This document shows, in pieces, positions 2,093-38,201 of a stretch of 64,000 nt of DNA (its first letter is position 1; each line of letters begins with the position of its first letter). Origin of the DNA: a virus; IMG/VR virus record IMGVR_UViG_3300012964_000002, positions 1 through 64,000 of that record; one strand, 5' to 3'. The position numbers and the translations under genes are program-made. The notes beneath the pieces were generated by a model. The model had not been told where the DNA came from. It saw only the letters and a list, made by a program, of their open reading frames with translations, and made no database searches.

Positions 2093-2327
2093 GGCGCACC
2101 TCCTCCGTCTCCGGTCTTGCCTCCGGAGCCTCAGGGTTGGAGAGGCGGACCCGGAAGGATCCGCGCTGACGGTCCGCCTCCACGTCGAGCACGGCGCCGT
2201 GCGGGCGGCCGGCGGAGAGCCAGATCCGCCACGCCTCCTGCACGGCGTCATCGCCGTGCCACTCGAGGCCGGAGGCGACGACCTCGGCGCGCTCCCAAGC
2301 GTCGAACACCTCGACGCGCGTGGTCAC
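2082..2327 (-). CDS. hypothetical protein
   Basis: GTGA overlap with upstream gene; plausible composition. Confidence 0.5.
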   Translation of the reverse strand: MTTRVEVFDAWERAEVVASGLEWHGDDAVQEAWRIWLSAGRPHGAVLDVEADRQRGSFRVRLSNPEAPEARPETEEVRRAV

Positions 2328-2890
2328 AAGTCCCTCGGCAGGTTCTGCGGCGCATCGTAGTTGGAAGACAACCGCCCGCTCCGCGTGCCCTCGAGCCGCA
2401 TCGGCGACGGGCTCTCCGCCAGCATCTTCGCGGAGAGGATCGCGCGCTGCGCCGCCGCGTTCCCCTTCGCCTTCCTGAGCGCCCCGACCGCGCCCGCCGG
2501 GACGGCCACGACCCACCCCCGCACCCACAGGGAGCCGTTGGGTCCGCGCCGCACGCGCACGCCGGCCGCGGCGCAGTCCGCCACCGCGGAGGAGCCGGGG
2601 GCGACGTTCACCCAACCGGCCTCCCGCAGCTTCTTGATCCGCTCGTGCGGCGTCAGCTTCCGGCGCGCCGCGCGTCCGGCGACGTTCTCGACCTCGCGTT
2701 GGGACGAGATCCGCGGGAAGGAGTCGTCAACCGTCCGCCGCAGCTTGCGGATCGCCGCCGCGAGACGCGCCCGCGCGTTCCGCCGCGCGAGCCGTCCTTG
2801 CTCTGGATGCAGCTTCCGCGCGGCGCGCTCCAGCTCCCGGAGAGCCGCGCGAAGAACGATCTCCTGCTCCGTCACGATTCTGGCCGTCAT
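2324..2890 (-). CDS. basic hypothetical protein ending in a PolA-like GTRSGRLSS...QNLP motif
   Basis: GAGGAG RBS and ATG; C-terminus resembles PolA TGRLSSxxPNLQNIP. Confidence 0.6.
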   Translation of the reverse strand: MTARIVTEQEIVLRAALRELERAARKLHPEQGRLARRNARARLAAAIRKLRRTVDDSFPRISSQREVENVAGRAARRKLTPHERIKKLREAGWVNVAPGSSAVADCAAAGVRVRRGPNGSLWVRGWVVAVPAGAVGALRKAKGNAAAQRAILSAKMLAESPSPMRLEGTRSGRLSSNYDAPQNLPRDL

Positions 2891-12111: not shown

Positions 12112-13505
12112 TCGTCGAGGTCGGCAACCTCAACGCGCGAGTCACGGCAGGCACCGACGCCGAGAAGCGCTGGGCGCGCGAGTACCTGTCGTTCGACGAC
12201 GTCGGCTTCAAGAGGCGCGGCGGGCGCGTCGACATGTACAACGTGATGAACGACTCGTTCCCCGCCGGCTTCCTGGGGATGGTCGAGAAGGCCGCGCGGG
12301 CGGCGCGCGTCTCGCTGAGCGTGGTGGACCGCCGCTCCGCCCCCGCCGCGCTCGACCCGGCGGCGGACCTCTCCTGGCTGCGCAAGGATCAGGTGGACGG
12401 CGTCGAGCTCGCCGCGACGCGGACGCGGGGGCTGCTCTGGCTCCCAACGGGCGCCGGAAAGACGGAGATCGCGGTCGGCCTGACCCGGCGCGTCCCGTGC
12501 CGCTGGCTGTTCCTCGTGCACCGCGCCGGCCTGATGGACCAGGCGGCCGAGAGGTACGAGAAGCGCACGGGACTCCCCGCCGGGCGCATCGGCGAGGGGA
12601 TGTGGACGGAGGAGCGGTTCACGGCGGCGACGTTCCAGACCGTGAGTCGCGCGCTCGAGGGCGGGGATCCGCGCGCGCTCGCCTTGCTGGAGAGGTCCGG
12701 CGGCCTGATGGTGGACGAGGCGCATGTTCTGCCCGCCGAGTCGTTCTGGGCCGTCGCCATGAAGTGCCGCGCCCACTGGCGGATCGGGCTCTCCGGAACG
12801 CCGCTCGCGCGGGGCGACCGTCGCTCGCTCCTCACGGTGGCGGCGCTCGGGCCGGTCATCTACCGGATCCGGCCGGACGTGCTCATCAAGGCCGGGATCC
12901 TCTCCCGCCCGAAGATCCGGCTCAGGAAGATCGCGCACCACGACATCAAGGGGAACCTGTGGCCCGCGGTGTACAGGGAGTGCATCGTCGGCTCCGCCGC
13001 GCGCAACCGCGCGGTCGTGGAGGACGTCAGGCGCGCGCGCAAGCCGTGCCTGGTCTTCGTGAAGGAGATCGATCACGGGAGGCTGCTCGAGAAGCTGATC
13101 CTGCGCGCCGGCCTCCGCGCGGAGTTCGTCTGGGGCACCGACTCAACGGAGGAGCGGAAGGCGGCGATCCGGCGGCTCGCGCGCGGAGACGCCGACGTGC
13201 TCGTCGCGAGCGTCGTCTTCAACGAGGGGGTGGACATCCCCGAGCTGCGGTCCGTGGTGGTGGCCTCCGGCGGCAAGAGCGTCATCGCGGCGCTGCAGCG
13301 GATCGGGCGCGGCATGCGAGTTCAGAAGGACGCGGCCGGGAACGTCGTCAAGGACGAGTTCCAGGTCTTCGACTACTTCGACGAGGGCGACAGGTGGCTG
13401 CGCCGCCACTCGAAGGCGCGCGTCAAGGCGTACACGAGCGAGGGGCACGAGACGGTGGTCGAGGACTTCCCGCAGAACCTGCCGAGCCTCGGAGGAGCGC
13501 CGTGA
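12108..13505 (+). CDS. SF2 DNA helicase (UvsW/ResIII-like)
   Basis: PTGAGKT, DEAH, SGT, EGVDIP, QRIGRGMR. Confidence 0.92.
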   Translation: MIVEVGNLNARVTAGTDAEKRWAREYLSFDDVGFKRRGGRVDMYNVMNDSFPAGFLGMVEKAARAARVSLSVVDRRSAPAALDPAADLSWLRKDQVDGVELAATRTRGLLWLPTGAGKTEIAVGLTRRVPCRWLFLVHRAGLMDQAAERYEKRTGLPAGRIGEGMWTEERFTAATFQTVSRALEGGDPRALALLERSGGLMVDEAHVLPAESFWAVAMKCRAHWRIGLSGTPLARGDRRSLLTVAALGPVIYRIRPDVLIKAGILSRPKIRLRKIAHHDIKGNLWPAVYRECIVGSAARNRAVVEDVRRARKPCLVFVKEIDHGRLLEKLILRAGLRAEFVWGTDSTEERKAAIRRLARGDADVLVASVVFNEGVDIPELRSVVVASGGKSVIAALQRIGRGMRVQKDAAGNVVKDEFQVFDYFDEGDRWLRRHSKARVKAYTSEGHETVVEDFPQNLPSLGGAP

Positions 13506-13726
13506 CGGAGGAGCAGCAGGCCAGGGCCGCGGCCGCGCTCCTGGGTGGCAACGGGTGCGTCGTCTGCGAGGGGTGCGGGGAATGGCTCTCCGACCGCGAC
13601 GCCCGATTCTTCAAGGACGGGCGCTGGTGGAGGTGCCGCAACTGCACGCCGTTCATGGACCGCCTGATGCCCTGGTGGCTGCTTCTTCTCGCGCTCGTCG
13701 GCGCCTCGGCCGAGCTCGCTCGATGA
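13502..13726 (+). CDS. small zinc-finger membrane protein
   Basis: CEGC...CRNC plus hydrophobic C-terminus; GGAGGAG RBS. Confidence 0.55.
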   Translation: MTEEQQARAAAALLGGNGCVVCEGCGEWLSDRDARFFKDGRWWRCRNCTPFMDRLMPWWLLLLALVGASAELAR

Positions 13727-14028
13727 GACCGGGAGCCTGGGAGAGGCGCGAGAAGGAGCGCCACCTCGAGCGGGTTGCCACGCGCGCCACGTTCGGCCGG
13801 CGCACTCTGGAGAAGGCGGCCAACGCGGCCGCGGACGAGCTGAGACCCCGCGCCGTCGTCGACTGGGCGTCTCCGACCGTGCGGCAGCTGCACAAGGCGG
13901 CCACCTTCGCCGCGATCTACGGGAGCGACGGGAGCGTCATGTGCATCGACGAGGTGGCGAGCTTCGACTTCGCCGACTTGGAGCGCAAGGTGGTGTCGAC
14001 CCTAAAGAAGATGCGCGCGGGCAAGTAG
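13723..14028 (+). CDS. small protein carrying PolA motif B- and motif A-like segments
   Basis: RQLHKAATFAAIYG and FDFADLERKV; ATGA overlap. Confidence 0.6.
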   Translation: MRPGAWERREKERHLERVATRATFGRRTLEKAANAAADELRPRAVVDWASPTVRQLHKAATFAAIYGSDGSVMCIDEVASFDFADLERKVVSTLKKMRAGK

Positions 14029-14035
14029 GATCAAC

Positions 14036-15571
14036 GTGTCGCTGGCCCGCCGCCTGTGGAAGGTGAGCGCGAACGCCTCACGCCGCTGCTCCGGCGCGAG
14101 CTCGCTGCCGTTCGAGACGTTCCGAAGGAAGCTCGGCGAGCCGGCGCTCCTCGTCTGGGAGGCTCTGGTCAGGCACCGGGGGGAGGAGGGGTTGTGCTGG
14201 CCGTCGACCGCGCGCGTCGTGCAGTCGGTGGTCGAGTGCGGCGGCGCGGTGGTGACACGCCGCGTCGTGAAGCGCGCGCTGCTGCGGCTCCGGCGCCTCC
14301 GGCTGCTCGAGGACCACGGCTGGAGCGCGCGGCCCGACCGGCGCCCGGGCGACGTCTACCTCCGGACCGTGCGAGGATCTGTGCACCCGGACGGGGATGG
14401 TGGCTGGGCGGCGCGGATCCCGGGAGAGGCAGCGCGGGCGCTCCGCGCGGCCGCCTCCCGCGGCGGGAGGAGGAAGGGAACGGGGCGCCGCGCCGCAGGC
14501 ACCACGAGTCGAAATCAAAGGGGTCCCACTTCCCCGGAAAACGCACTCCCGGTGCGCGCAATCAAAGGGGTCCCCGGAATAGGATCTATGTCCTCTGAGA
14601 AGCTAGGTACTTCAGCGGTTCCTCCGGAACCGCGCGCCGCGCTCGCGGCGCCGCCCTGTCAGGGAGGAGGGGGACCGCCCGAGCCGGTCGCGGTCGAGTC
14701 CGCCCTCGCCGACCTCCTCCGCGGATCCCGCCCGCCGCCCGCCGCCGTCTGGGAGGCGTGGCCCGGGCGCGGCCCCGTTCCCGTGCGACCCTTCCGGGCC
14801 ATCTTCTACGAACCTGACGCGGAGGGGATCCCGCGGCGCGTGCTCGAGCACGTGCGCATCCCGGCCGCGCGCGCCCTGACCGCGGAGGAGCTCAGGGACG
14901 AGAATCGCGTGATCGACCGCATGTGGTCGGCGTTCAACGGCGCGGTGCGGGCCGTGGCCGGCCTGCCGTGGAGCGCGAGCCGCACGCCGCCGAAGGTCAG
15001 GAACCGCGGGTCCTCGAGGGAGCGCATGCTGGAGATGGCGCGGTGGCTCTCCGACCTGGGGCCGAAGTGCGACCGGTGCGACGGCGACGGGGAGGACGAC
15101 GCGGGCACCTGCGATCGCTGCCGGGGGCGCGGCATCCTCGCCGGCGTCGCCCCGGAGGCGTGGTTCGTCTTCTGGGCGAACAGGTGGGTGGTCTCCACGG
15201 GGCGGCGCCCGACGTCGATGCCGCTCCACTACGCGCTGTCGGAGCAGCACATGGCGAAGGCCAGCTGGTTCCTGCACGAGAAGGACGGATTCGTGGGCGG
15301 GCGCGAGATCCGCACGGCGACGCACGTCGCGATGGACGAGCGGCACGACCAGATGATGTGGTCGCTGCACGAGGAGGCCCCAAAGACGGAGGAGGAGGCC
15401 AAGGCCATCGTGGGCCGCTGCTGGCCGGACGGGCTCTGGAGGCGCATGGTGGCCCGCGCCCGCCGAGAGGTGCACGACGACCAGCTGAGGATCAACGACA
15501 TGGTGAGGCGCGGGGAGTGGGTCTGGTCGGTCGGCAGGGCCAAGAAGCAGCGCAAGGCGGGGGAGGTCTAG
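14036..15571 (+). CDS. putative replication initiator (N-terminal winged HTH)
   Basis: ALLVWEAL...CWPSTARV...VKRALLRLRRLRLLE wHTH; internal repeats; directly upstream of DnaB. Confidence 0.65.
   Translation: MSLARRLWKVSANASRRCSGASSLPFETFRRKLGEPALLVWEALVRHRGEEGLCWPSTARVVQSVVECGGAVVTRRVVKRALLRLRRLRLLEDHGWSARPDRRPGDVYLRTVRGSVHPDGDGGWAARIPGEAARALRAAASRGGRRKGTGRRAAGTTSRNQRGPTSPENALPVRAIKGVPGIGSMSSEKLGTSAVPPEPRAALAAPPCQGGGGPPEPVAVESALADLLRGSRPPPAAVWEAWPGRGPVPVRPFRAIFYEPDAEGIPRRVLEHVRIPAARALTAEELRDENRVIDRMWSAFNGAVRAVAGLPWSASRTPPKVRNRGSSRERMLEMARWLSDLGPKCDRCDGDGEDDAGTCDRCRGRGILAGVAPEAWFVFWANRWVVSTGRRPTSMPLHYALSEQHMAKASWFLHEKDGFVGGREIRTATHVAMDERHDQMMWSLHEEAPKTEEEAKAIVGRCWPDGLWRRMVARARREVHDDQLRINDMVRRGEWVWSVGRAKKQRKAGEV
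14513..14579. repeat. iteron-like direct repeats, candidate replication origin
   Basis: AATCAAAGGGGTCCC at 14513-14527 and 14560-14574; TCCCCGGAA at 14531 and 14571; locally lower GC. Confidence 0.65.
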
Positions 15572-23131: not shown

Positions 23132-23694
23132 TCACGGAGCTGACGGGGTTCAGGGCGCTGGCGGAGGTCATGGGGGAGATCCACGTCGTCGAGTACAAGG
23201 AGGGGGCGCTGCTGATCGCCGACCTGACGCTCGAGGACGTGGGTCGGATCCTCGACCTCGTGAGCGCTGGCAAGGTCGTGGGGGTGCGCGCGGTGGGAGG
23301 TGTTCCGCTCCCCGGAGGCGCCCCGGCGCCGCGCCGGCTGGAGGCCGCGCCGTCGCCCCCGTCGGAGGCGGCGGAGGCGCCTTCCGACGTTCCGCCCGCT
23401 CCTCCGGCGGATCCCCCGCCCGCCGCCCGGGCCGCGCCCGCGGAGGCGCCGCGCGACGCTTCCCCTCCCGCCGCGCCTCCGGCTCCCCCGTCCGGGAACG
23501 GCACGGCCCCGCCGGAGATCGTCGGCGCGCCTAACTTCCGCGCCATCGTGGCCCACATGCGGGACGCGATGGGGCTCAAGACGGTGGACGAGATCGTCGC
23601 CGCCTGCGAGGGGTTCCGCACCGCGAGCCCGATCCTCGGGCGCGTTCGCGACATGCGCGACCGCGTGCAGAGGACGATGGACACCCTGGTGTGA
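23128..23694 (+). CDS. two-domain protein with Pro/Ala linker
   Basis: AGGAGGAGG RBS; coupled to the polymerase gene. Confidence 0.65.
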   Translation: MITELTGFRALAEVMGEIHVVEYKEGALLIADLTLEDVGRILDLVSAGKVVGVRAVGGVPLPGGAPAPRRLEAAPSPPSEAAEAPSDVPPAPPADPPPAARAAPAEAPRDASPPAAPPAPPSGNGTAPPEIVGAPNFRAIVAHMRDAMGLKTVDEIVAACEGFRTASPILGRVRDMRDRVQRTMDTLV

Positions 23695-26282
23695 GAGCGC
23701 GCCGCCTCTACCCTGATCCGTCCGCGCCGCTCGCGGCCGGGGGCCTCGCGCTCCCGGTCGCGGGCGGGCCGCGTCTGGACGTGGACCCCGGGTGCACGAG
23801 GTGCCCTCTCTCGAGGGCGGCGCGGAACCCGTGCGTGCCGGCGGAGGGGGAGCCGGGCGGCGTCGTGCTCGTGGGGGAGCACCCGGGCAAGGCGGAGGAC
23901 GCGGCGCGTCGTCCCTTCGTCGGGGGCTCGGGGAAGTACCTGCGTGAGCTCGTCGCCCGGTGGTGGAAGGGTCCCGTGGTGCTGGAGAACGCGGTGAAGT
24001 GCTTCGCCGCCGCCACGGCCCCGGAGCATGTTGCGGCCTGCCGCCCGTTCCTGGCGGCGACGCTCGACGAGGCGAAGCCGTCCCGGATCGTGGCGCTGGG
24101 CGCCGCGGCGTGGCTCTCGCTGACCGGGCGCTCGACGGCGCCGCTCACGCAGAGGCGCGCCTTCTGCTGGCACGGGGATGTTCCGGTCTTCTTGACCGTC
24201 AACCCGGCGGCGGCGCAGCGCAACCGCTTCGTGGCGCGGGACTTCGAGGAGGATCTGGAGTGGGCGCTGACGGCGGCCCCGCCGTTCCCGAGCCCGCGGG
24301 ATCTCGAGTGGCGGGAGGTGGAGACGGAGGCGGACGCGCTCCGGGCCGCCGCGGAGCTCAGGGCCGCGCCGTGGGTGTCCGTGGACGCCGAGACGAGCGG
24401 GCAGCAGTGGACGCCCGGGTTCCGCGTCGCGAGCGTCGCGGCCTGCTCGCCATCCGGCGATCCGTGCTGGGTGTGGGGGAAGGAGCAGATCGACGACGCG
24501 CGCGTCCGCGCGCCGCTCGCTTTGCTCCTCGGAGACCCGGCGGTCGGGAAGGTCGGGGCGAACATCAAGAGCGACCTCTCGTTCCTCGGAGAGAGGATCG
24601 GCCCGGTGCGGAACGTCCACGGAGACGTGCGGCTCTGGCGGAAGCTGGAGTCGCCGGAGGCGTCCGGCTACCTGGAGGACATCGCCGAGCTCGTCGGGAT
24701 GGGGGGCCACAAGGACGAGATGATGGCCGGCGTCACCCTGGCGGAGGAGGCGTTCAGGAGGCGGACGCGCGGGGGCGGCAAGGCGCAGATGTCGCTCGTC
24801 GCGGACGGCGCGCCGCGTCCGGTTCACGAGCCGGAAGACCTCGCCGAGCAGCTCAAGTCCGGTGCCGAGATGAAGAAGTTCTCGTACGCGCTCGTCCACC
24901 GCGACCTGCTCCTCCGCTACAACGCGCGCGACGCGGTGGCCGCCGCGTGGGCCGCCCGCCTCCTCGGGCCCCGGGTGCGCGCGCGGGACGGACTGGACCG
25001 CGTCTGGACCCGGGTCGTGCGCCCCATGAGCGAGGCGCTCGCCGGGATGGAGGCGGTAGGCGTCCCTGTGAGCGTGGACGCCATCGACGTCTTCGACGCG
25101 CACCTGTCCACGAAGATGACGGACGTGCGTCGCCGCCTCGACCAGTACGGCAAGGAGTTCAACCCGGACAGCCCGAAGCAGGTGCGCGAGCTCCTCTTCG
25201 ACAAGCTCAAGCTGCGGCCTCCGGAAGACACGGAGACCCCGAGCGGGCTTCAGAGCACCGCCGAGGAGGTGCTGGAGGAGCTCAAGGGCCATCACTCGGC
25301 GCCCAAGGACATCCTCGACTGGCGCGCGCTCGCCAAGCTCAAGGGCACGTACTGCGACGGAATGCGGCCGCACCTCCGCCCCGACGCCGCGGGTCTCCCG
25401 AGGATCCACCCGAGCATCCTTCCGGACGGCGCGCGCACCGGGCGCTGCTCCTGCGTCGAGCCGAACCTCCAGAACATCCCGCGGACCTCCACCGACGAGG
25501 GGAAGATGGCGCGCAACATCTTCGCCGCGCGCCCGGGCTGGGTGATGGTCCACTGCGACTTCGCGCAGCTCGAGTACCGCATCGCCGCCATGCTCTCCGG
25601 AGATCCGGAGATGCGCGCCATCCTGGACAAGGGGATCGACTTCCACACCGGCACCGCGATGGTGATCGCGCCCTACCTCTGGCACGTCACGTACACGGAC
25701 CCGGGCCAGGTCGCGAAGGCGCACAGGGACGACGCGAAGACCATCAACTTCGCGCTGCTCTACGGGCAGGGGGACGGGAGCACGGCGCGAAAGCTGCACA
25801 CGTCGCTCGCGGAGGCGGAGCGGGTGCGACTGGCGGTGCTCGGCAAGTTCCGCCTGCTCGCCCAGTGGATCAACCGCACGACGCGCGAGAGCAAGCTGTC
25901 GGGCTTCTCGCGGACGTGGTGGGACGGGGCTCCCGCGCGCTGGCGCCCGATCTACTCCCTCGGAGACCCGGACGAGGGGCGGCGCGCGGACGGGGAGCGG
26001 CGCGCCGTGAACAGCCCGATTCAGGGAACGGCGGCCGACTTCCTGAACGCCTCGATCGCGCTGGTCTCGGATTGGATCCGGGACAACGCGGCGCCGGCCG
26101 AGCTCTGCCTCGCCATCCACGACGCGCTCCTCCTCCACGTCCGCGAGGACGCCGTCGAGGAGGTGGCGTGGAACGTGCGCCGTCTCATGCTCTCGCACCC
26201 GAGCAGCGGGATCCCGCTCGACGTGGACGTGGAGGTCGGTCGGGCGTGGGGAAGCCTCTCGAAGATCAAGCTGGCGGCGTGA
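23691..26282 (+). CDS. polA: family A DNA polymerase with N-terminal family-4 UDG domain and 3'-5' exonuclease (SPO1-type architecture)
   Basis: CTRCPLS...VGEHPG...RPFVG (UDG4); DAETSG (Exo I), YNARD (Exo III); TGRCSCVEPNLQNIP; DFAQLEYR; KTINFALLYG; NSPIQG; IHDA. Confidence 0.95.
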   Translation: MRARRLYPDPSAPLAAGGLALPVAGGPRLDVDPGCTRCPLSRAARNPCVPAEGEPGGVVLVGEHPGKAEDAARRPFVGGSGKYLRELVARWWKGPVVLENAVKCFAAATAPEHVAACRPFLAATLDEAKPSRIVALGAAAWLSLTGRSTAPLTQRRAFCWHGDVPVFLTVNPAAAQRNRFVARDFEEDLEWALTAAPPFPSPRDLEWREVETEADALRAAAELRAAPWVSVDAETSGQQWTPGFRVASVAACSPSGDPCWVWGKEQIDDARVRAPLALLLGDPAVGKVGANIKSDLSFLGERIGPVRNVHGDVRLWRKLESPEASGYLEDIAELVGMGGHKDEMMAGVTLAEEAFRRRTRGGGKAQMSLVADGAPRPVHEPEDLAEQLKSGAEMKKFSYALVHRDLLLRYNARDAVAAAWAARLLGPRVRARDGLDRVWTRVVRPMSEALAGMEAVGVPVSVDAIDVFDAHLSTKMTDVRRRLDQYGKEFNPDSPKQVRELLFDKLKLRPPEDTETPSGLQSTAEEVLEELKGHHSAPKDILDWRALAKLKGTYCDGMRPHLRPDAAGLPRIHPSILPDGARTGRCSCVEPNLQNIPRTSTDEGKMARNIFAARPGWVMVHCDFAQLEYRIAAMLSGDPEMRAILDKGIDFHTGTAMVIAPYLWHVTYTDPGQVAKAHRDDAKTINFALLYGQGDGSTARKLHTSLAEAERVRLAVLGKFRLLAQWINRTTRESKLSGFSRTWWDGAPARWRPIYSLGDPDEGRRADGERRAVNSPIQGTAADFLNASIALVSDWIRDNAAPAELCLAIHDALLLHVREDAVEEVAWNVRRLMLSHPSSGIPLDVDVEVGRAWGSLSKIKLAA

Positions 26283-34334: not shown

Positions 34335-35033
34335 GTGGAGCAGCCGAAGGTTCACTGGGTCCCGATCGAGCAGACGCGGCCCCACCCTCGCAACTACCGC
34401 AAGCACCCGGAGGACCAGCTCGAGCACATCGTCGCGTCGCTCCGTCAGCACGGGTTCTACCGCAACGTCGTGCTCGCCCGCGACGGGACGGTCCTCGCCG
34501 GGCACGGCGTGCGCGAGGCGACGGAGAGGATGAAGGGCACGCACCTTCCCGCCATCGTCCTCGACCTCGACCCGAACGACCCCCGCGCGCTGAAGGTGCT
34601 CGCGGGCGATAACGAGATCGGGAAGCTGGCCGAGACGGACGACCGCGCCCTGACCGAGCTCCTGAAGGAGGTTCTCCGGTCCGACGACGCGTTCGGGAAG
34701 CTCTCCGGGACCGGGTTCAACGAGGAGCAGCTCGCGGCGCTCGTCTTCACGACGCGGCCGGCCAGCGAGGTTCAGAGCATGGACGAGGCGGCCGCCTGGG
34801 TCGGGATGCCTGAGTACGAGGAGGGCGGCAGCACGATCAAGCTGGTCATCTCCTTCAAGTCGGACGAGGACCGCGCGCGCTTCCTCGCGGAGACGGGCAT
34901 CCGCATCGACAAGAGCGCCATCAAGGGCAGCACGTGGTCGACGCGCTGGCCGTGGACCGACCGCGAGGACTCCGCGTCCGTGCGCTTCGAGACGAAGGAG
35001 GAGCCCCCGCCCGCGCCTCCCGAGGCGGCGTGA
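34335..35033 (+). CDS. ParB/Srx-domain protein linked to glycosyltransferases
   Basis: PHPRNYRKH...GF...VLAGHG...DNEI; C-terminal WVGMPEY. Confidence 0.85.
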   Translation: MEQPKVHWVPIEQTRPHPRNYRKHPEDQLEHIVASLRQHGFYRNVVLARDGTVLAGHGVREATERMKGTHLPAIVLDLDPNDPRALKVLAGDNEIGKLAETDDRALTELLKEVLRSDDAFGKLSGTGFNEEQLAALVFTTRPASEVQSMDEAAAWVGMPEYEEGGSTIKLVISFKSDEDRARFLAETGIRIDKSAIKGSTWSTRWPWTDREDSASVRFETKEEPPPAPPEAA

Positions 35034-35803
35034 CCGGGGCTCTCCCGCGCTACCCCGTGTACGTGCTCTCCAAGGGCAGGAGCGACCGCTGCCTGACGGC
35101 GAGGTTCCTGCTCCGCGACGGGGTGCCGTTCATCATCGCCGTGGAGCCGCACGAGGCCGACCTGTACGCCGCGGAGTTCGGGCGCGAGCGCCTGCTGATT
35201 CTCCCCTTCCGCGACGCCGGGACCGCCACGCCCGCGAGGAACGCCGTCAAGGAGCGCTCCGTCGCGGCTGGCGACGCGAGGCACTGGCAGCTCGACGACA
35301 ACATCCGAGGAATCCGAGGCTACGTCGACGGCAAGCGCGTCCGGGTGAGGGGCGGGCCGGCGCTCCGCGAGGTCGAGGAGCTGGTGGACGGCTACGAGAA
35401 CGTGGGCATCGCGGGCCTTCAGCACACCGTCTTCCAGGACCGCTCGCGGCCGTTCCTCGTGAACCGTCAGGTCTACTCGTGCGTGCTGGTGGACAACCGT
35501 CTGCCGTTCCGCTGGCGCGGGGTGGCGCACCACGACACCGACTACTCTCTTCAGGTGCTCGTGGCCGGCCACTGCACGATCCTCGTCTGCGCCTTCGGCA
35601 TCGAGAAGGCACAGACCATGTCGATGAAGGGCGGGATGACCGACGCCTACCTGGGCGACGGGAAGCTGCGGAAGGCCCACGAGATCCAGCGGCGGTGGCC
35701 CGGGCGCGGCATCAAGATCGTGCGGCGCAACGGCGTCCCAAGCGCCAGCATGGGGCGCGTCTGGTCGAAGTTCACCACCCCGCTGCGCCCGAGGTCCCCG
35801 TGA
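35030..35803 (+). CDS. GREB1-like/TET-associated glycosyltransferase 1 (GT-A fold)
   Basis: YPVYVLSKGR, VEP, HWQLDDNI, VYSCVL, WRG, DTDYSLQVL, TMSMKGG. Confidence 0.8.
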   Translation: MTGALPRYPVYVLSKGRSDRCLTARFLLRDGVPFIIAVEPHEADLYAAEFGRERLLILPFRDAGTATPARNAVKERSVAAGDARHWQLDDNIRGIRGYVDGKRVRVRGGPALREVEELVDGYENVGIAGLQHTVFQDRSRPFLVNRQVYSCVLVDNRLPFRWRGVAHHDTDYSLQVLVAGHCTILVCAFGIEKAQTMSMKGGMTDAYLGDGKLRKAHEIQRRWPGRGIKIVRRNGVPSASMGRVWSKFTTPLRPRSP

Positions 35804-36687
35804 CGCTCCCGCGCTACCCGGTGTACGTGATCTCGAAGGGGCGGCATGACTGCTGCCTGACCGCCCGCGCGTTCGTGAAGGATGGGGTGCCCTTCCGCCT
35901 GGTGGTGGAGCCGCAGGAGCGGGAGCTGTACGCGCGGGAGTTCGGGGGCGGCCCGCTGCTGGTGACGCCCTTCTCGAACCTCGGCCTGGGCTCGATCCCC
36001 GTCCGCAACTTTGTCTGGGAGCACGCGAAGGCTTCCGGCGCGGAGCGGCACTGGATCTTCGACGACAACATCTCCGGCATCTGGCGCCGCTGGAAGGCGC
36101 GGAAGATCCGGTGCGAGGCCGGCGTCGCGCTCGCCGCCTCCGAAGACTTCGTCGACCGCTACGAGAACGTCGCGATCGCGGGCCTCAACTACTACATGTT
36201 CTCGGTGAACAAGACGAAGCAGCCGCCCTTCTACCTGAACGTCCACGTCTACTCGGCGCTGCTGATCCTGAACGACCTGCCGTTCCGCTGGCGCGGCCGC
36301 TACAACGAGGACACCGACCTCTGCCTCCAGGTGCTCTCCGCCGGCTGGTGCACGGTCCTCTTCAACGCCTTCCTCGCGTGGAAGATGACGACCATGACGA
36401 TGAAGGGCGGGAACGCGGCCGAGCTCTACAAGGGCGACGGGCGCCTCAAGATGGCGCGGTCGCTCGAGCGGGCGTGGCCGGGCGTCGTCACGACGCGGCG
36501 CCGCTTCCGCCGCCCGCAGCACGTCGTGAAGGGAGCGTGGCGCGGGTTCGACACGCCGCTCAAGCTCAGGCCGGGCGTGGACCTTTCCGCGCTTCCGAAG
36601 GTGGACGAGCGGGGGATGGAGATCGTCCGCGTGAAGGAGATCCGGAGCGCGGAGCTCAGGCAGATGGTCGAGGAGCGGGAGAGGTGA
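35800..36687 (+). CDS. GREB1-like/TET-associated glycosyltransferase 2
   Basis: YPVYVISKGR, HWIFDDNI, WRGRYNEDTDLCLQVL, TMTMKGGN. Confidence 0.85.
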   Translation: MTLPRYPVYVISKGRHDCCLTARAFVKDGVPFRLVVEPQERELYAREFGGGPLLVTPFSNLGLGSIPVRNFVWEHAKASGAERHWIFDDNISGIWRRWKARKIRCEAGVALAASEDFVDRYENVAIAGLNYYMFSVNKTKQPPFYLNVHVYSALLILNDLPFRWRGRYNEDTDLCLQVLSAGWCTVLFNAFLAWKMTTMTMKGGNAAELYKGDGRLKMARSLERAWPGVVTTRRRFRRPQHVVKGAWRGFDTPLKLRPGVDLSALPKVDERGMEIVRVKEIRSAELRQMVEERER

Positions 36688-36920
36688 GCTGGATTTCGCT
36701 GAGCGACGCGGCCGACCGCCTGGGGCTGCTCCCCGACGAGCTTTCCAAGATGATGCTCGTCACGCACCGGAACGGCACGTCCTTGGTGATGCATCCTCCG
36801 CGCAAGTGCTTCAGCGGCAAGATCCGGGTGACGCACGGGCCGCGCGTGTGGGAACCAGACTTGGAGCCGTGGGCCGCGGAAAGGGCGGCGGGGCTGATCC
36901 CGTGGGGAACAATCTCGTGA
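36684..36920 (+). CDS. wHTH paralog family member
   Basis: WISLSDAADRLGL...VWEPDLEPWAAERAAGL. Confidence 0.65.
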   Translation: MSWISLSDAADRLGLLPDELSKMMLVTHRNGTSLVMHPPRKCFSGKIRVTHGPRVWEPDLEPWAAERAAGLIPWGTIS

Positions 36921-37420
36921 GCGGGCTCCGTCCTCTTCGTCCTGTGCTGGTCGGGCAGGCGCCCGGGCCGGGCGGCGCCCCGCTCGGCCCGCTGCGGGGC
37001 GGGCGCGTCGGGCGCCGCCTCGCGGACGCGGCGGGGCTTCCGGAGGAGCGGCTCGCGGAGGTCTTCGAGCTGTGGAACCTCCTCGGCGCCTGGCCGGGCC
37101 GCGCCGGCGAGAAGGGGGACCGCTTCCCGCTCCCGGCCGCCCGCGCGGCCGCGGCGCGCCTGCTGCCTCTCCTTGACGGGCACCACGTCGTCCTGCTGGG
37201 GTGGAACGTCGAGCGTGCGTTCGGGCTGGGAATCGAGGCGCCGCTCCGCTGGCTGCAGCACGAGTGGGCGGAGGGCGAGATGCTGGTCGCCGTTCTGCCC
37301 CACCCGTCGGGCGTGAACCTCTGGTGGAACCGGGCGGAGAACGTCGCGGCGGCGCGCGTGTTCATGCGCGGGCTCGTCGAGCACGCCGCCGACCTGCGCG
37401 AGGGCGCGCCCCGTGCTTGA
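36917..37420 (+). CDS. uracil-DNA glycosylase-superfamily protein
   Basis: LVGQAPG, WNL, VVLLG, LPHPSG motifs. Confidence 0.75.
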   Translation: MSGLRPLRPVLVGQAPGPGGAPLGPLRGGRVGRRLADAAGLPEERLAEVFELWNLLGAWPGRAGEKGDRFPLPAARAAAARLLPLLDGHHVVLLGWNVERAFGLGIEAPLRWLQHEWAEGEMLVAVLPHPSGVNLWWNRAENVAAARVFMRGLVEHAADLREGAPRA

Positions 37421-38201
37421 CGTCCTGCTCGACGCGGGGAAGGGGCAGGGAGCCGTCGTTGTCCACGGCGACGGGATGGAGCTGCTCCGCGCGCGCCCCG
37501 ACCGATCCGCCGGCCTCGTCCTGACCGACCCTCCCTACGACCCGCGGACGCACGAGGGGGCGCGCACGAACCGGGAGGGGGCGGGCGACAAGTCGCCCAT
37601 CCTGTTCGCGCCGTTCTCCGAGGAGCAGGTGCGCGAGCTGGCGCGCGAGGCGTGCCGCGTCACCCGCGCCTGGGTGGTGATGACGCTGGAGTACAGGATG
37701 GCCGTCCACTTGGAGGACGACCCGCCGCCGGGCGTGCGGTTCGTGCGCCTGGGGATCTGGGACAAGCTCCGCACCGGCGCGCCCCAGAAGTCGGGTGACC
37801 GCCCCGGGATGGGGTACGAGGCGGTCGCGATCCTCCACCGCGACGACGTCGGTCGGATGCGCTGGAACGGGCACGGGCGTGACGCGGTCTTCCGCCACGC
37901 CGTCGTGCGCGGCGGGCACCCCACGGAGAAGCCGGTCGGCCTGGGCGTCGAGCTCGTGCGGCTGTTCTCCGACCCGGGCGACGAGGTGATCGATCCCTTC
38001 TGCGGCTCCGGCGCGTTCTTGGAGGCCGCGAAGGTGGAGGGACGTCGCGCGGTCGGCGTCGAGCTCGACCTGGCGTGGGCCAGGAGGGCGGCGCGCCGGC
38101 TCTCCCAGGCGGTCATCGCCGCGCCCGCGGCGCCCCGCGCTGAGCAGCCCGATCTCCTCGTGGTGCCTCGGACGAGGCGCCCCCGTGCCGCCCTTCCTTG
38201 A
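37413..38201 (+). CDS. DNA N6-adenine/N4-cytosine methyltransferase (beta class)
   Basis: TDPPY, HPTEKP, DPFCGSG, GVELD. Confidence 0.92.
   Translation: MLDVLLDAGKGQGAVVVHGDGMELLRARPDRSAGLVLTDPPYDPRTHEGARTNREGAGDKSPILFAPFSEEQVRELAREACRVTRAWVVMTLEYRMAVHLEDDPPPGVRFVRLGIWDKLRTGAPQKSGDRPGMGYEAVAILHRDDVGRMRWNGHGRDAVFRHAVVRGGHPTEKPVGLGVELVRLFSDPGDEVIDPFCGSGAFLEAAKVEGRRAVGVELDLAWARRAARRLSQAVIAAPAAPRAEQPDLLVVPRTRRPRAALP

What the first reader, a model, noticed from the sequence alone, without database searches (positions are those of the whole stretch)
13723..14028. 101-aa protein with PolA motifs B and A in permuted order
Seen: RQLHKAATFAAIYG aligns with motif B (the window's polymerase: RDDAKTINFALLYG), and is followed by FDFADLERKV aligning with motif A (CDFAQLEYRI). 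This is the reverse of the order in polymerases, and there is no motif C. With the fragment at 2324, three hallmark PolA motifs lie scattered in small genes beside an intact polymerase. Inference: polymerase-mimic miniproteins acting as dNTP binders, inhibitors or decoys for defence systems that sense phage polymerases.
Basis: partly seen in the sequence, partly recalled or inferred. Interest (0 to 1): 0.72.

Follow-up and report, generated by a model that had tools for sequence, protein, structure and literature searches.

The report
Phage miniprotein copying polymerase pocket motifs
A tiny, rare phage protein in the DNA-replication gene block carries the nucleotide-contacting signature residues of a family A DNA polymerase in shuffled order and without the catalytic parts, so it looks like a mimic of the polymerase's substrate pocket; its job is untested.

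Summary
The ORF at 13723-14028 is a real gene. Its codon GC pattern matches its neighbours', and two homologs of 107-108 aa share its start and end. It is very rare: only three sequences turned up in billions searched.

RxxxKxxxFxxxYG (polymerase motif B) is invariant in all 3, although the protein is only 37-47% conserved overall. Profile comparison places this helix on motif B of family A polymerases far above shuffled controls. The reverse search hits polymerase genes at motif B.

The motif-A-like piece that follows is weaker. It appears in 2 of 3 members, 3 of 100 shuffles reach its score, and the catalytic Asp is kept in only 1 of 3. There is no motif C and no Pfam match, so this is not a polymerase.

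A probable distant relative, gp025 of the cultured roseophage R5C (78 aa), strings TGR motif, motif B and motif A together in the same non-native order. Its TGR piece matches R5C's own polymerase in residues, not codons. The PolA-like tail of the ORF at 2324 is absent from its one homolog.

Best reading: a self-derived mimic of polymerase substrate-contact motifs (decoy or competitor), function untested. Earlier notes of this scan describe polymerase-fragment miniproteins in huge phages.

The parts
13723..14028 (+). Gene for the 101-aa miniprotein (P0001)
   Evidence: ORF and translation. GC3 is 0.93. Two homologs of 107-108 aa share the same MRPG start and GK end.
13723..13800 (+). Residues 1-26, the nearly invariant N-terminal segment (MRPGxWERxExxRHLERxAxRAxxGR). 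No PolA likeness was shown for it.
   Evidence: 18 of the first 26 columns are invariant in 3 sequences. AF2 predicts a helix over residues 5-40 at pLDDT 70-81. The best PolA alignment of this half is not significant (hhalign score 8.6, E 0.9). No paralog was found in the phage's own genome.
13882..13923 (+). Residues 54-67, the motif-B-like (O-helix-like) segment R-x3-K-x3-F-x3-Y-G
   Evidence: Invariant in 3 of 3 members. hhalign against 39 PolAs places it on motif B: probability 74%, score 36.5, versus shuffles at 14.1 +/- 2.4 with a maximum of 23.1. The PolA HMM picks motif B in 3 of 3 members. The miniprotein profile hits PolA motif B in 5 of 30 related phage records and nothing else there. 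AF2 predicts a helix at 51-66.
13963..14004 (+). Residues 81-94, the motif-A-like segment (FDFADLERKVVSTL), with invariant Glu87 at the position of the motif A Glu
   Evidence: Second hhalign hit, to PolA 621-635 (score 16.6, E 0.17). 3 of 100 shuffles reach the score. Fixed-register PSSM test: P0001 p<5e-5, P0005 p=1e-4, P0007 p=0.36. The Asp is kept in 1 of 3 members.
13502..13726 (+). Upstream 74-aa ORF (P0002) with a CxxC...CxxC zinc-ribbon-like pattern and a hydrophobic tail. Its stop overlaps the miniprotein's start (ATGA). This is context, not shown to be a partner.
   Evidence: Sequence. Only weak zinc-ribbon Pfam hits, E 0.02-0.1. GC3 is 0.89.
23691..26282 (+). The phage's intact family A DNA polymerase, a UDG-exonuclease-PolA fusion. 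It carries the native motifs A (DFAQLE) and B (RDDAKTINFALLYG).
   Evidence: Pfam DNA_pol_A 3.2e-85, UDG 5.8e-18, exonuclease 4.1e-6. Translation.
2333..2398 (-). C-terminal tail of the 188-aa ORF at 2324-2890 (P0129), which resembles the PolA TGRLSSxxPNLQNIP motif
   Evidence: The PolA HMM aligns it to positions 565-586 at 5.6 bits. It is the best non-PolA hit in the genome's six-frame scan, E 0.34. The one homolog found (147 aa, L091) ends before the tail.

Best explanation
P0001 is an expressed-looking, fast-evolving accessory protein of the phage's replication gene block. It has two parts. The first is a nearly invariant N-terminal helix of unknown partner. The second is a C-terminal half that reproduces, as short linear pieces in non-native order, the substrate-contacting motifs of a family A DNA polymerase.

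Those pieces are the O-helix signature R, K, F, Y-G (motif B) and then a motif-A-like helix that keeps the Glu. The catalytic carboxylates are not dependably present, and motif C, the palm and the thumb are absent. It therefore cannot polymerise.

The most likely mechanism (inferred, not shown) is molecular mimicry of the phage's own polymerase. The protein would present these conserved peptides to a factor that would otherwise engage the polymerase active-site region, such as a host defence sensor, a modifying enzyme or an inhibitor, and so act as a decoy or competitor.

Shown: the gene is real, the motif B residues are under selection, the likeness to PolA motif B is specific, and a cultured-phage protein has the same design.

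Inferred: descent from PolA, and the decoy role.
For: - The gene is real: GC3 is 0.93, and two homologs share its length, start and end.
- It evolves fast but selectively. P0007 is 37% identical to P0001. The PolA P0010, apparently on the same 89,064-bp contig, is 81-87% identical to the window's PolA. Even so, R54, K58, F62, Y66, G67 and E87 are invariant (p about 5e-5).
- The likeness to PolA motif B is specific:
  - hhalign score 36.5, with 0 of 200 shuffles above 23.1;
  - the PolA HMM picks motif B in 3 of 3 members, and the two homologs score higher than P0001;
  - the miniprotein profile, searched in six frames over 30 related phage records, matched 5 records, all inside PolA ORFs at motif B;
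  - 20 of its top 40 hits among 11,195 six-frame ORFs are PolA, against 0-2 of 40 in 15 shuffled controls.
- A motif-A-like segment is the second alignment to PolA.
- P0001 shares rare quirks with its own PolA lineage: DFA in motif A (3 of 105 PolAs), DGS after YG (3 of 107) and FA (24 of 107).
- R5C gp025 (78 aa) aligns to the miniprotein profile across both segments at 17.7 bits. Its three parts each pick a PolA motif: TGR, B plus O1, and A.
- Its tblastn hits other than itself are S-ESS1 plus 9 records, 7 of them annotated as DNA polymerase.
- Its TGR piece matches R5C's own PolA in 11 of 16 residues, with 8 of those 11 encoded by different codons. The likeness is therefore held at protein level.
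- Full PolA genes sit elsewhere in 3 of 3 near-complete records that hold such small ORFs.
Against: - No Pfam or PHROG hit for any of the three members.
- BLASTP against the phage's own PolA finds nothing at the motifs.
- A PDB profile search finds no polymerase, and the protein atlas gives no polymerase clusters.
- With the five signature residues held fixed, the rest of the motif B window is not clearly PolA-like: p = 0.35, 0.05 and 0.07.
- The motif A likeness is marginal: 3 of 100 shuffles reach it. It is absent in P0007, and the catalytic Asp is kept in 1 of 3 members.
- The phage's own PolA is not the best-scoring PolA for any member. Its ranks among 92 are 25 and 12 for P0001, 10 and 56 for P0005, and 82 and 5 for P0007. 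A self-copy origin is therefore not shown here.
- The link to R5C gp025 rests on a tblastn E of 6 and on a score from a 4-sequence search.
- The family has 3 members, and 0 of 30 related phage records hold a homolog.
- The AF2 model is poor, with mean pLDDT 62.
- Nothing shows a target, binding or expression.
- KxxxFxxxYG also occurs in RecA, so part of the pattern can arise outside polymerases.
Confidence: 0.4

Rival explanations
1. Non-catalytic nucleotide or primer-terminus binder. The O-helix-like helix (R and K for the triphosphate, F and Y for sugar and base stacking) and the motif-A-like helix (Glu) pack into a small pocket. That pocket would bind dNTPs or a modified nucleotide without catalysis, buffering or sensing the pool for replication.
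For: The invariant residues are the ones that contact the incoming nucleotide in family A polymerases. Reviewed passages give the O-helix Phe and Tyr and the motif A 'steric gate' Glu (PMC10520511); the roles of the Arg and Lys are recalled from memory. The metal-binding Asp is dispensable in the family, kept in 1 of 3 members. The gene lies among replication genes. AF2 predicts helices at both segments.
Against: In the polymerase these residues are held in place by a 400-residue fold, and a 50-residue hairpin is unlikely to rebuild that pocket. The shuffled and variable motif order seen in other phages (TGR-B-A in R5C, B-TGR-A in L107) fits recognition of linear pieces better than a fixed pocket. 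The model is low in confidence, and there is no structural match. No binding test was possible.
Confidence: 0.2
2. Chance or convergent resemblance. The protein is an unrelated small replication-module factor, such as an adaptor or regulator, whose amphipathic helix happens to place R, K, F and Y one turn apart and end in Gly.
For: All standard family searches are negative. The non-signature residues are not significantly PolA-like. The motif A likeness is marginal. A reader scanning many windows will meet chance matches. By my estimate, a few thousand chance regex hits scan-wide times 5e-5 gives about 0.2 such conserved cases expected. The most conserved part is the N-terminal helix, which has no PolA likeness.
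Against:
- The three members keep different PolA-like residues around the signature: RxDAK in P0005, KTIxFG in P0007, and FAxxYGxDGS in P0001.
- The second-best alignment is again a hallmark motif.
- R5C gp025 repeats the design and adds a TGR piece close to its own PolA.
Confidence: 0.22
3. Replisome adaptor or regulator. The PolA-like helix docks onto the polymerase, the helicase or the DNA at the fork, for example by competing with the fingers for the template strand, and so tunes replication rather than countering defence.
For: The gene sits between an SF2 helicase and the initiator-like and DnaB genes and is translationally coupled to its neighbour. The invariant N-terminal helix suggests a conserved phage-encoded partner. 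In SP6-like phages, a 240-aa family containing a fingers-like stretch lies between the primase/helicase and DNA polymerase genes.
Against: Core replisome parts rarely diverge to 37% while the polymerase stays at 81-87%. 0 of 30 related phages with the same PolA type have a homolog.
Confidence: 0.12
4. Decaying remnant of a former or duplicated polymerase gene with no function of its own.
For: Polymerase genes are exchanged among phages (PMC11348598, abstract and passages), so leftovers could exist. The similarity is confined to short pieces.
Against: The three homologs keep the same start, stop and length and a full codon-position GC signature. The order of the pieces is not that of a polymerase. 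The N-terminal half is not polymerase-like, yet it is the most conserved part.
Confidence: 0.04

Closest known systems
Family A DNA polymerase (Pfam PF00476; Klenow/Bst/T7 type): fingers O helix (motif B) and motif A
   Same: The R-x3-K-x3-F-x3-Y-G signature is invariant and profile-aligns with motif B. A following segment aligns with motif A and its helix, and keeps the Glu.
   Different: Only 101 aa. The motifs are in the order B then A. There is no motif C, palm or thumb. The catalytic Asp is kept in 1 of 3 members. No Pfam hit at E<=1 for P0001 or E<=10 for the two homologs. It is not a polymerase.
Dinoroseobacter phage vB_DshS-R5C gp025 (YP_009600149.1, 'hypothetical protein', 78 aa)
   Same: A small protein with motif B followed by a motif-A-like DFAAIEARV. 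It aligns with the miniprotein profile over both segments at 17.7 bits. All of R, K, F, Y, G and E are shared. A full PolA is encoded elsewhere in the genome.
   Different: It lacks the N-terminal MRPGxWER helix and instead starts with a TGR-motif piece close to its own PolA. It lies among small genes near the terminase gene, not in a replication block. The database-wide similarity is not significant (tblastn E 6).
phrog_6703-type 240-aa proteins of SP6-like (Molineuxvirinae) phages, e.g. UNA05448.1 of Klebsiella phage vB_KvaP_F5M1D
   Same: They carry RQxxKxxTFAxRYG, found by tblastn with P0005 and scoring 11.1 bits with the miniprotein profile. The gene lies between the primase/helicase and DNA polymerase genes. 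The function is unknown.
   Different: They are much longer, with other domains. In one member the PolA-like stretch is collinear with PolA from the DIHxxTA region through motif B. P0001 gives no PHROG hit.
[quoted passage not shown] 2018, PMC5871332)
   Same: A virus-encoded protein that carries pieces of its own essential enzymes, DNA polymerase included. The authors propose a decoy role (passages read).
   Different: That is a eukaryotic giant virus. The fragments are fused to ankyrin repeats, and there is no shuffled motif order. The decoy role is a suggestion there too.
Tagged polymerase-fragment miniproteins of huge phages
   Same: Small phage genes that keep signature pieces of the phage's own polymerase.
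   Different: Those share a common C-terminal helix tag across many small genes. P0001 has no paralog or shared tag in its genome. I did not check those notes.

Membership tests
Family A DNA polymerase (PF00476) | Match to the DNA_pol_A profile above the gathering score | tested here: not met
   No hit for P0001 at E<=1, and none for P0005 or P0007 at E<=10. My own PolA HMM gives only 0.9-5.6 bits at motif B.
Family A DNA polymerase (PF00476) | Motif B, R-x3-K-x3-F-x3-Y-G on the O helix | tested here: met
   Invariant in 3 of 3 members. Profile-profile alignment to motif B scores 36.5, versus a shuffle maximum of 23.1.
Family A DNA polymerase (PF00476) | Motif A with the catalytic Asp (D-[YF]-S-Q-I-E-L-R) | tested here: not met
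   The Asp is present in 1 of 3 members (Ser in P0005, none aligned in P0007). Only the Glu is invariant. The likeness is marginal.
Family A DNA polymerase (PF00476) | Motif C (HDE) and a palm, thumb and fingers domain of about 400 residues | tested here: not met
   The protein is 101 aa. There is no HDE match and no third hhalign hit.
Provisional class: PolA-motif mosaic miniproteins (R5C gp025-like) | Small protein with a motif-B-like K-x-x-T-F-A-x-x-Y-G helix followed by a motif-A-like F/D-x-x-[IL]-E-x-[RK]-V segment | tested here: met
   P0001 and P0005 have both segments. P0007 has only the first. R5C gp025 has both.
Provisional class: PolA-motif mosaic miniproteins (R5C gp025-like) | Statistically significant sequence relationship to R5C gp025 | tested here: inconclusive
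   tblastn of P0005 against 2.3 Gb of phage DNA gives E 6. The miniprotein profile scores 17.7 bits in a 4-sequence search.
Provisional class: PolA-motif mosaic miniproteins (R5C gp025-like) | A complete PolA gene elsewhere in the same genome | tested here: met
   The window's PolA. R5C, the L107 record and the L102 record each have a PF00476 match above the cut-off.
phrog_6703 (SP6-like phage proteins of unknown function) | Match to the PHROG profile | tested here: not met
   P0001 gives no PHROG hit at E<=1, whereas P0130 matches at 5.5e-60.
Bodo saltans virus-type decoy fusions | Ankyrin-repeat body fused to the enzyme fragment | tested here: not met
   No Pfam domain of any kind in P0001.

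The most novel reading that the evidence does not exclude
Tailed phages of many sizes may encode an undescribed class of miniproteins that are mosaics of the substrate-contacting motifs of their own family A polymerase (TGR/PNLQNIP, motif A, motif B), joined in shuffled orders.

Orders seen so far:
- B-A in this window;
- TGR-B-A in roseophage R5C gp025;
- B-TGR-A in a 175-kb phage contig;
- a fingers-like stretch in a 240-aa family beside the polymerase gene of SP6-like phages.

The motifs would be kept by selection at the protein level. The miniproteins would serve as decoys that soak up a host or rival factor aimed at the polymerase active-site region. This would be a new counter-defence principle, and it can be tested in a culturable phage-host pair (R5C and Dinoroseobacter shibae).
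Probability: 0.28. Interest if true: 0.85.

Novelty: categorically new. Interest (0 to 1): 0.68.

Why it matters
If the reading holds, phages copy the most invariant peptides of their own replicative polymerase into tiny separate proteins. That would point to an unknown host or rival activity that attacks or senses the polymerase active-site region, and to a new kind of counter-measure.

It would also give a natural minimal scaffold that displays O-helix residues, which is of interest for how nucleotide pockets can be pared down.

The family here is too small to settle this. However, the R5C protein and the SP6-like family sit in cultured phages, so ordinary genetics and biochemistry can test the idea.

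My five full-text searches found no paper describing stand-alone or permuted PolA-motif miniproteins in phages. The nearest published idea is the Bodo saltans virus decoy suggestion (PMC5871332).

Tried and rejected
- Collinear reading. I first thought the FDFADLE part was simply the region after motif B in PolA. HMMER alignments do run on into that region. But hhalign stops at column 83 and gives motif A as the separate second hit, and the C-terminal segments alone pick motif A. I dropped the collinear reading for P0001. In R5C gp025 the stretch just after YG does align collinearly with PolA's O1 region.
- Self-copy of the window's own PolA. This was suggested by DFA, DGS and FA, but alignment-score ranks do not support it. 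The longest shared DNA word is 10 bases.
- A TGR-like element at G25-R26. MAFFT lines it up with R5C's TGR, but the N-terminal half has no significant PolA alignment. Left as a weak lead.
- L004 and L005 from genome contigs are off-frame matches inside other genes, not homologs.
- P0006 and P0008 are repeat proteins whose many small matches add up.
- Structure. The AF2 model has mean pLDDT 62. Foldseek against the PDB found nothing at E<=0.001. VIA wide returned only generic helical hairpins, Z<=6.8. The PDB sequence profile search returned RecA concatemers and troponin. The protein atlas gave no polymerase clusters.
- Complex prediction of the miniprotein with PolA residues 430-863 gave no answer (score 0.01). 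This is no evidence either way.
- Expression. No RNA holder is listed for this DNA, and the three holders are wetland DNA runs that may be the source.
- Relatives in collections. None was found in viral contigs or metagenome contigs with the protein or the alignment. The DnaB gene found no close relatives. The 511-aa neighbour has almost no relatives in 5 related records, so synteny could not extend the family.
- tblastn of P0007 against phages found no match. For P0001, the best hits were motif B of the phage HMO-2011 PolA (E 7) and a primase (E 3), neither significant.
- The motif-pattern scan of viral contigs selects TFAxRYG by design. Of its 11 stretches, several are short or start-less frames that may be chance (L098, L101, L103, L104, L106). 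I rely only on R5C, L107 and the two 240-aa proteins.
Full report
WHAT IS THERE. The window is the first 64 kb of an 89,426-bp IMG/VR phage record with direct terminal repeats and about 72% G+C. Sequencing runs that hold it are wetland metagenomes. The ORF runs from ATG at 13723 to TAG at 14026-14028 and encodes 101 aa, named P0001 here. Its start overlaps the stop of a 74-aa zinc-ribbon-like ORF in an ATGA. GC by codon position is 0.64/0.51/0.93, the same signature as the flanking helicase genes and the polymerase.

The neighbourhood is a replication block: a ParB-like gene, an excisionase-type HTH, an SF2 DNA helicase, the two small ORFs, a 511-aa protein with a CxxCxGxG-like finger, and a DnaB-like helicase. 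Ten kb further on lies a UDG-exonuclease-PolA fusion at 23691-26282.

THE OBSERVATION. Pairwise BLASTP against the phage's own PolA does not find them. Neither Pfam nor PHROGs gives any hit for the protein.

HOMOLOGS. A full phmmer pass over 1.84 billion cluster representatives returned five proteins at E<=0.001:
- the query itself;
- P0005 (108 aa, 6.6e-12);
- P0007 (107 aa, 1.9e-4);
- two long repeat proteins whose many tiny matches add up and which I discard.

Word-index searches with the protein and then with the three-sequence profile found nothing more. Each of the three is a single-member cluster. P0005 sits on a 946-base NCBI contig. P0007 sits on an 89,064-base ENA/Logan contig. That length is also listed for P0010, a PolA that is 87% identical to the window's over the polymerase domain and 81% overall. 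I infer that this contig is a sister phage.

In contrast, P0007 is 37% and P0005 47% identical to P0001. The three share the start MRPG, the end GK, and 30 invariant columns. Eighteen of those lie in the first 26 residues. Of the 12 invariant columns in the remaining 75 residues, five are R54, K58, F62, Y66 and G67. The hypergeometric chance of that is about 5e-5. In the DFxxLE piece, only E87 is invariant.

IS THE LIKENESS TO MOTIF B MORE THAN CHANCE?
- Regex counts. R...K...F...YG occurs twice in the six-frame ORFs of the whole genome (PolA and this ORF), where about 0.025 hits are expected. It never occurs in 1.27 million residues of non-PolA six-frame ORFs from 80 related phage loci. All 65 of its matches there lie in the 81 PolA ORFs.
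- Profile against profile. hhalign of the three-sequence alignment against 39 PolAs gives one hit, on motif B, with probability 74% and E 2.7e-5. Run locally it scores 36.5, against 14.1 +/- 2.4 (maximum 23.1) for 200 column shuffles.
- PolA HMM against each member. A PolA HMM built from those 39 sequences places its best local alignment on motif B in all three members.
- Reverse search. The miniprotein profile, searched in six frames over 30 related virus records, matched 5 records, every time inside a 795-895-aa PolA frame at motif B. It found no miniprotein homolog in any of the 30.
- Enrichment. Locally, 20 of its 40 best hits among 11,195 six-frame ORFs are PolA ORFs, which make up 81 ORFs and 5% of residues. 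Fifteen shuffled profiles gave 0-2 of 40.

AGAINST THE LIKENESS.
- With the five signature residues fixed, the other residues of the window are not clearly PolA-like: p = 0.35, 0.05 and 0.07.
- The Pfam model, the PDB profile search and the protein atlas do not see a polymerase.
- RecA carries KxxxFxxxYG too.

THE SECOND PIECE. I first suspected that FDFADLE was the stretch that follows motif B in polymerases, which would remove the permutation. The tests do not bear that out.
- hhalign's second, separate alignment puts residues 80-94 on PolA 621-635, that is, motif A and its helix (score 16.6, E 0.17).
- The C-terminal segment alone does the same, and 3 of 100 shuffles reach its score.
- The PolA HMM picks motif A for the C-terminal segments of P0001 and P0005, with negative bit scores, and reports nothing for P0007.
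- In the register fixed by the invariant Glu, P0001 and P0005 match a motif A weight matrix far better than their own shuffles do (p<5e-5 and 1e-4). P0007 does not (0.36).

So the motif A likeness is real in two members but marginal once the freedom of placement is counted. The catalytic Asp is kept in only one of three.

P0001 also shares three rare quirks with the PolA of its own lineage: DFA in motif A (3 of 105 PolAs), DGS just after YG (3 of 107) and FA (24 of 107). Yet its own PolA ranks only 25th and 12th of 92 by local alignment score. A copy from its own gene is therefore not shown.

A RELATIVE IN A CULTURED PHAGE. tblastn of P0005 against 50,697 phage records gave only weak hits, E 2-8. 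Two of them turned out to be small proteins with the same motif.
- Dinoroseobacter phage R5C gp025 is 78 aa and annotated hypothetical.
  - The miniprotein profile aligns with it from motif B through the motif-A-like part at 17.7 bits.
  - The PolA HMM places its three parts on the TGR/PNLQNIP motif (4.3 bits), on motif B plus the following O1 region (8.2 bits), and on motif A (-1.8 bits).
  - Pfam and PHROGs see it weakly as DNA polymerase (E 0.052 and 0.0019).
  - Its tblastn hits other than itself are S-ESS1 and nine records, seven of them annotated as DNA polymerase.
  - R5C has a full PolA elsewhere.
  - The TGR piece of gp025 matches that PolA in 11 of 16 residues but only 26 of 48 bases, and 8 of the 11 identical residues use different codons. 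The likeness is thus kept at the protein level and is not a recent DNA copy.
  - Its order is TGR-B-A, where polymerases have TGR-A-B.
- A 242-aa protein of Klebsiella phage F5M1D belongs to phrog_6703, of unknown function. It lies between the primase/helicase and polymerase genes and also carries RQxxKxxTFAxRYG.

A pattern scan of IMG/VR for this motif variant found 11 stretches, none in a full polymerase. They include R5C itself and two more 240-aa proteins. In one of those two, the PolA-like stretch is collinear with PolA from DIHxxTA through motif B. They also include a 188-aa ORF on a 175-kb phage contig, in which motif B is followed by a TGR/PLQNIP stretch that the HMM aligns with PolA 569-599 at 0.1 bits. 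By eye, a DY-containing motif-A-like end follows. That contig and another hit also encode a full PolA. Several of the 11 are short frames that may be chance.

THE 2324 FRAGMENT. The 188-aa minus-strand ORF ends in a TGR-motif-like tail. It is the best non-PolA hit of the PolA HMM in the genome (E 0.34; 5.6 bits). Its one detected homolog, 147 aa in a related record, stops before the tail. That piece is therefore not shown to be conserved.

STRUCTURE, PARTNERS AND EXPRESSION. AF2 with the three-row alignment gives mean pLDDT 62 and helices at 5-40, 51-66, 75-78 and 83-98. The motif B segment is thus predicted to be helical. Fold searches give nothing specific.

READING. What is shown:
- a real, very rare, fast-diverging small protein in a replication block;
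- selection on exactly the motif B signature residues and one Glu;
- a specific two-way profile likeness to PolA motif B;
- a weaker likeness to motif A, in non-native order;
- the same design in a cultured roseophage, with one piece tracking that phage's own polymerase.

What is inferred: descent from, or mimicry of, the polymerase's substrate-contact motifs, and the function.

I favour a decoy or competitor role, for three reasons. The pieces are short and linear. Their order varies between phages. The protein diverges like a host-interaction gene. A rebuilt nucleotide pocket seems less likely without the 400-residue scaffold. The roles of the O-helix Phe and Tyr and of the motif A Glu come from passages of a review (PMC10520511). 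The roles of the Arg and Lys are recalled from memory. Chance or convergence remains a serious rival at about one in five.

COMPARISON AND NOVELTY. The protein fails membership of family A polymerases on every feature except motif B. My five full-text searches found no description of stand-alone or permuted PolA-motif miniproteins in phages. The nearest published idea is the decoy suggestion for Bodo saltans virus ankyrin ORFs that carry fragments of polymerase and other essential genes (PMC5871332, passages). Earlier unchecked notes of this scan report tagged polymerase-fragment miniproteins in huge phages. P0001 has no such shared tag or paralog.

Noticed in passing
window 23691-26282 (+): The phage's polymerase is a UDG-3'-5' exonuclease-PolA fusion. 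More than 100 similar UDG-PolA proteins turned up in metagenomes, some with intein or HNH insertions. [quoted passage not shown] An earlier scan note places a DNA hypermodification cluster at 34335-38201.
   Followed up: partly
window 2324-2890 (-), tail at 2333-2398: A 188-aa ORF ends in a PolA TGRLSS..PNLQNIP-like tail. Its single homolog (L091:1462-1905, 147 aa) lacks the tail.
   Followed up: partly
L096:4001-4234 (= Dinoroseobacter phage R5C gp025, YP_009600149.1): A 78-aa 'hypothetical protein' that strings together TGR-motif, motif B/O1 and motif-A-like pieces. The TGR piece is 11 of 16 residues identical to R5C's own PolA, with mostly different codons.
   Followed up: partly
L093:1285-2013 (Klebsiella phage vB_KvaP_F5M1D, UNA05448.1); L097:9114-9836; L100:8633-9355: 240-aa proteins of unknown function (the Klebsiella phage one matches phrog_6703; the two IMG/VR ones are alike by eye, not scanned). 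The Klebsiella gene lies between the primase/helicase and DNA polymerase genes. All carry RQxxKxxTFAxRYG. In L097 the stretch is collinear with PolA from DIHxxTA to motif B. In the Klebsiella phage protein a VHDE motif-C-like stretch follows motif B.
   Followed up: partly
L107:11918-12481 (-), 175-kb IMG/VR contig: A 188-aa ORF in which a motif-B-like stretch is followed by SGR...PLQNIP, which the PolA HMM aligns with positions 569-599 at 0.1 bits. By eye, a DY-containing motif-A-like end follows. This is another shuffled order. The contig also encodes a full PolA.
   Followed up: partly
L095:2312-2782 (+), Synechococcus virus S-ESS1: An unannotated 156-aa ORF with a TVTGRF stretch and a DLDYAKVEARI motif-A-like stretch. 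It is similar to R5C gp025 (tblastn E 0.01). The PolA HMM aligns it at motif A with 0.7 bits.
   Followed up: partly
window 14036-15571 (+): The 511-aa protein after the miniprotein has a winged-helix-like N-terminus and a DnaJ-type CxxCxGxG-like finger (Pfam E 0.006, below cut-off). An earlier scan note reads it as a lambda O-style initiator. It has almost no relatives in 5 related phage records.
   Followed up: no
L002:1028-3070 (Puniceispirillum phage HMO-2011 PolA): The record's own annotation notes a DnaJ_CXXCXGXG zinc finger inside this PolA, and the translation shows CxxC...CxxC. The same kind of finger occurs here in a separate gene next to the miniprotein.
   Followed up: no
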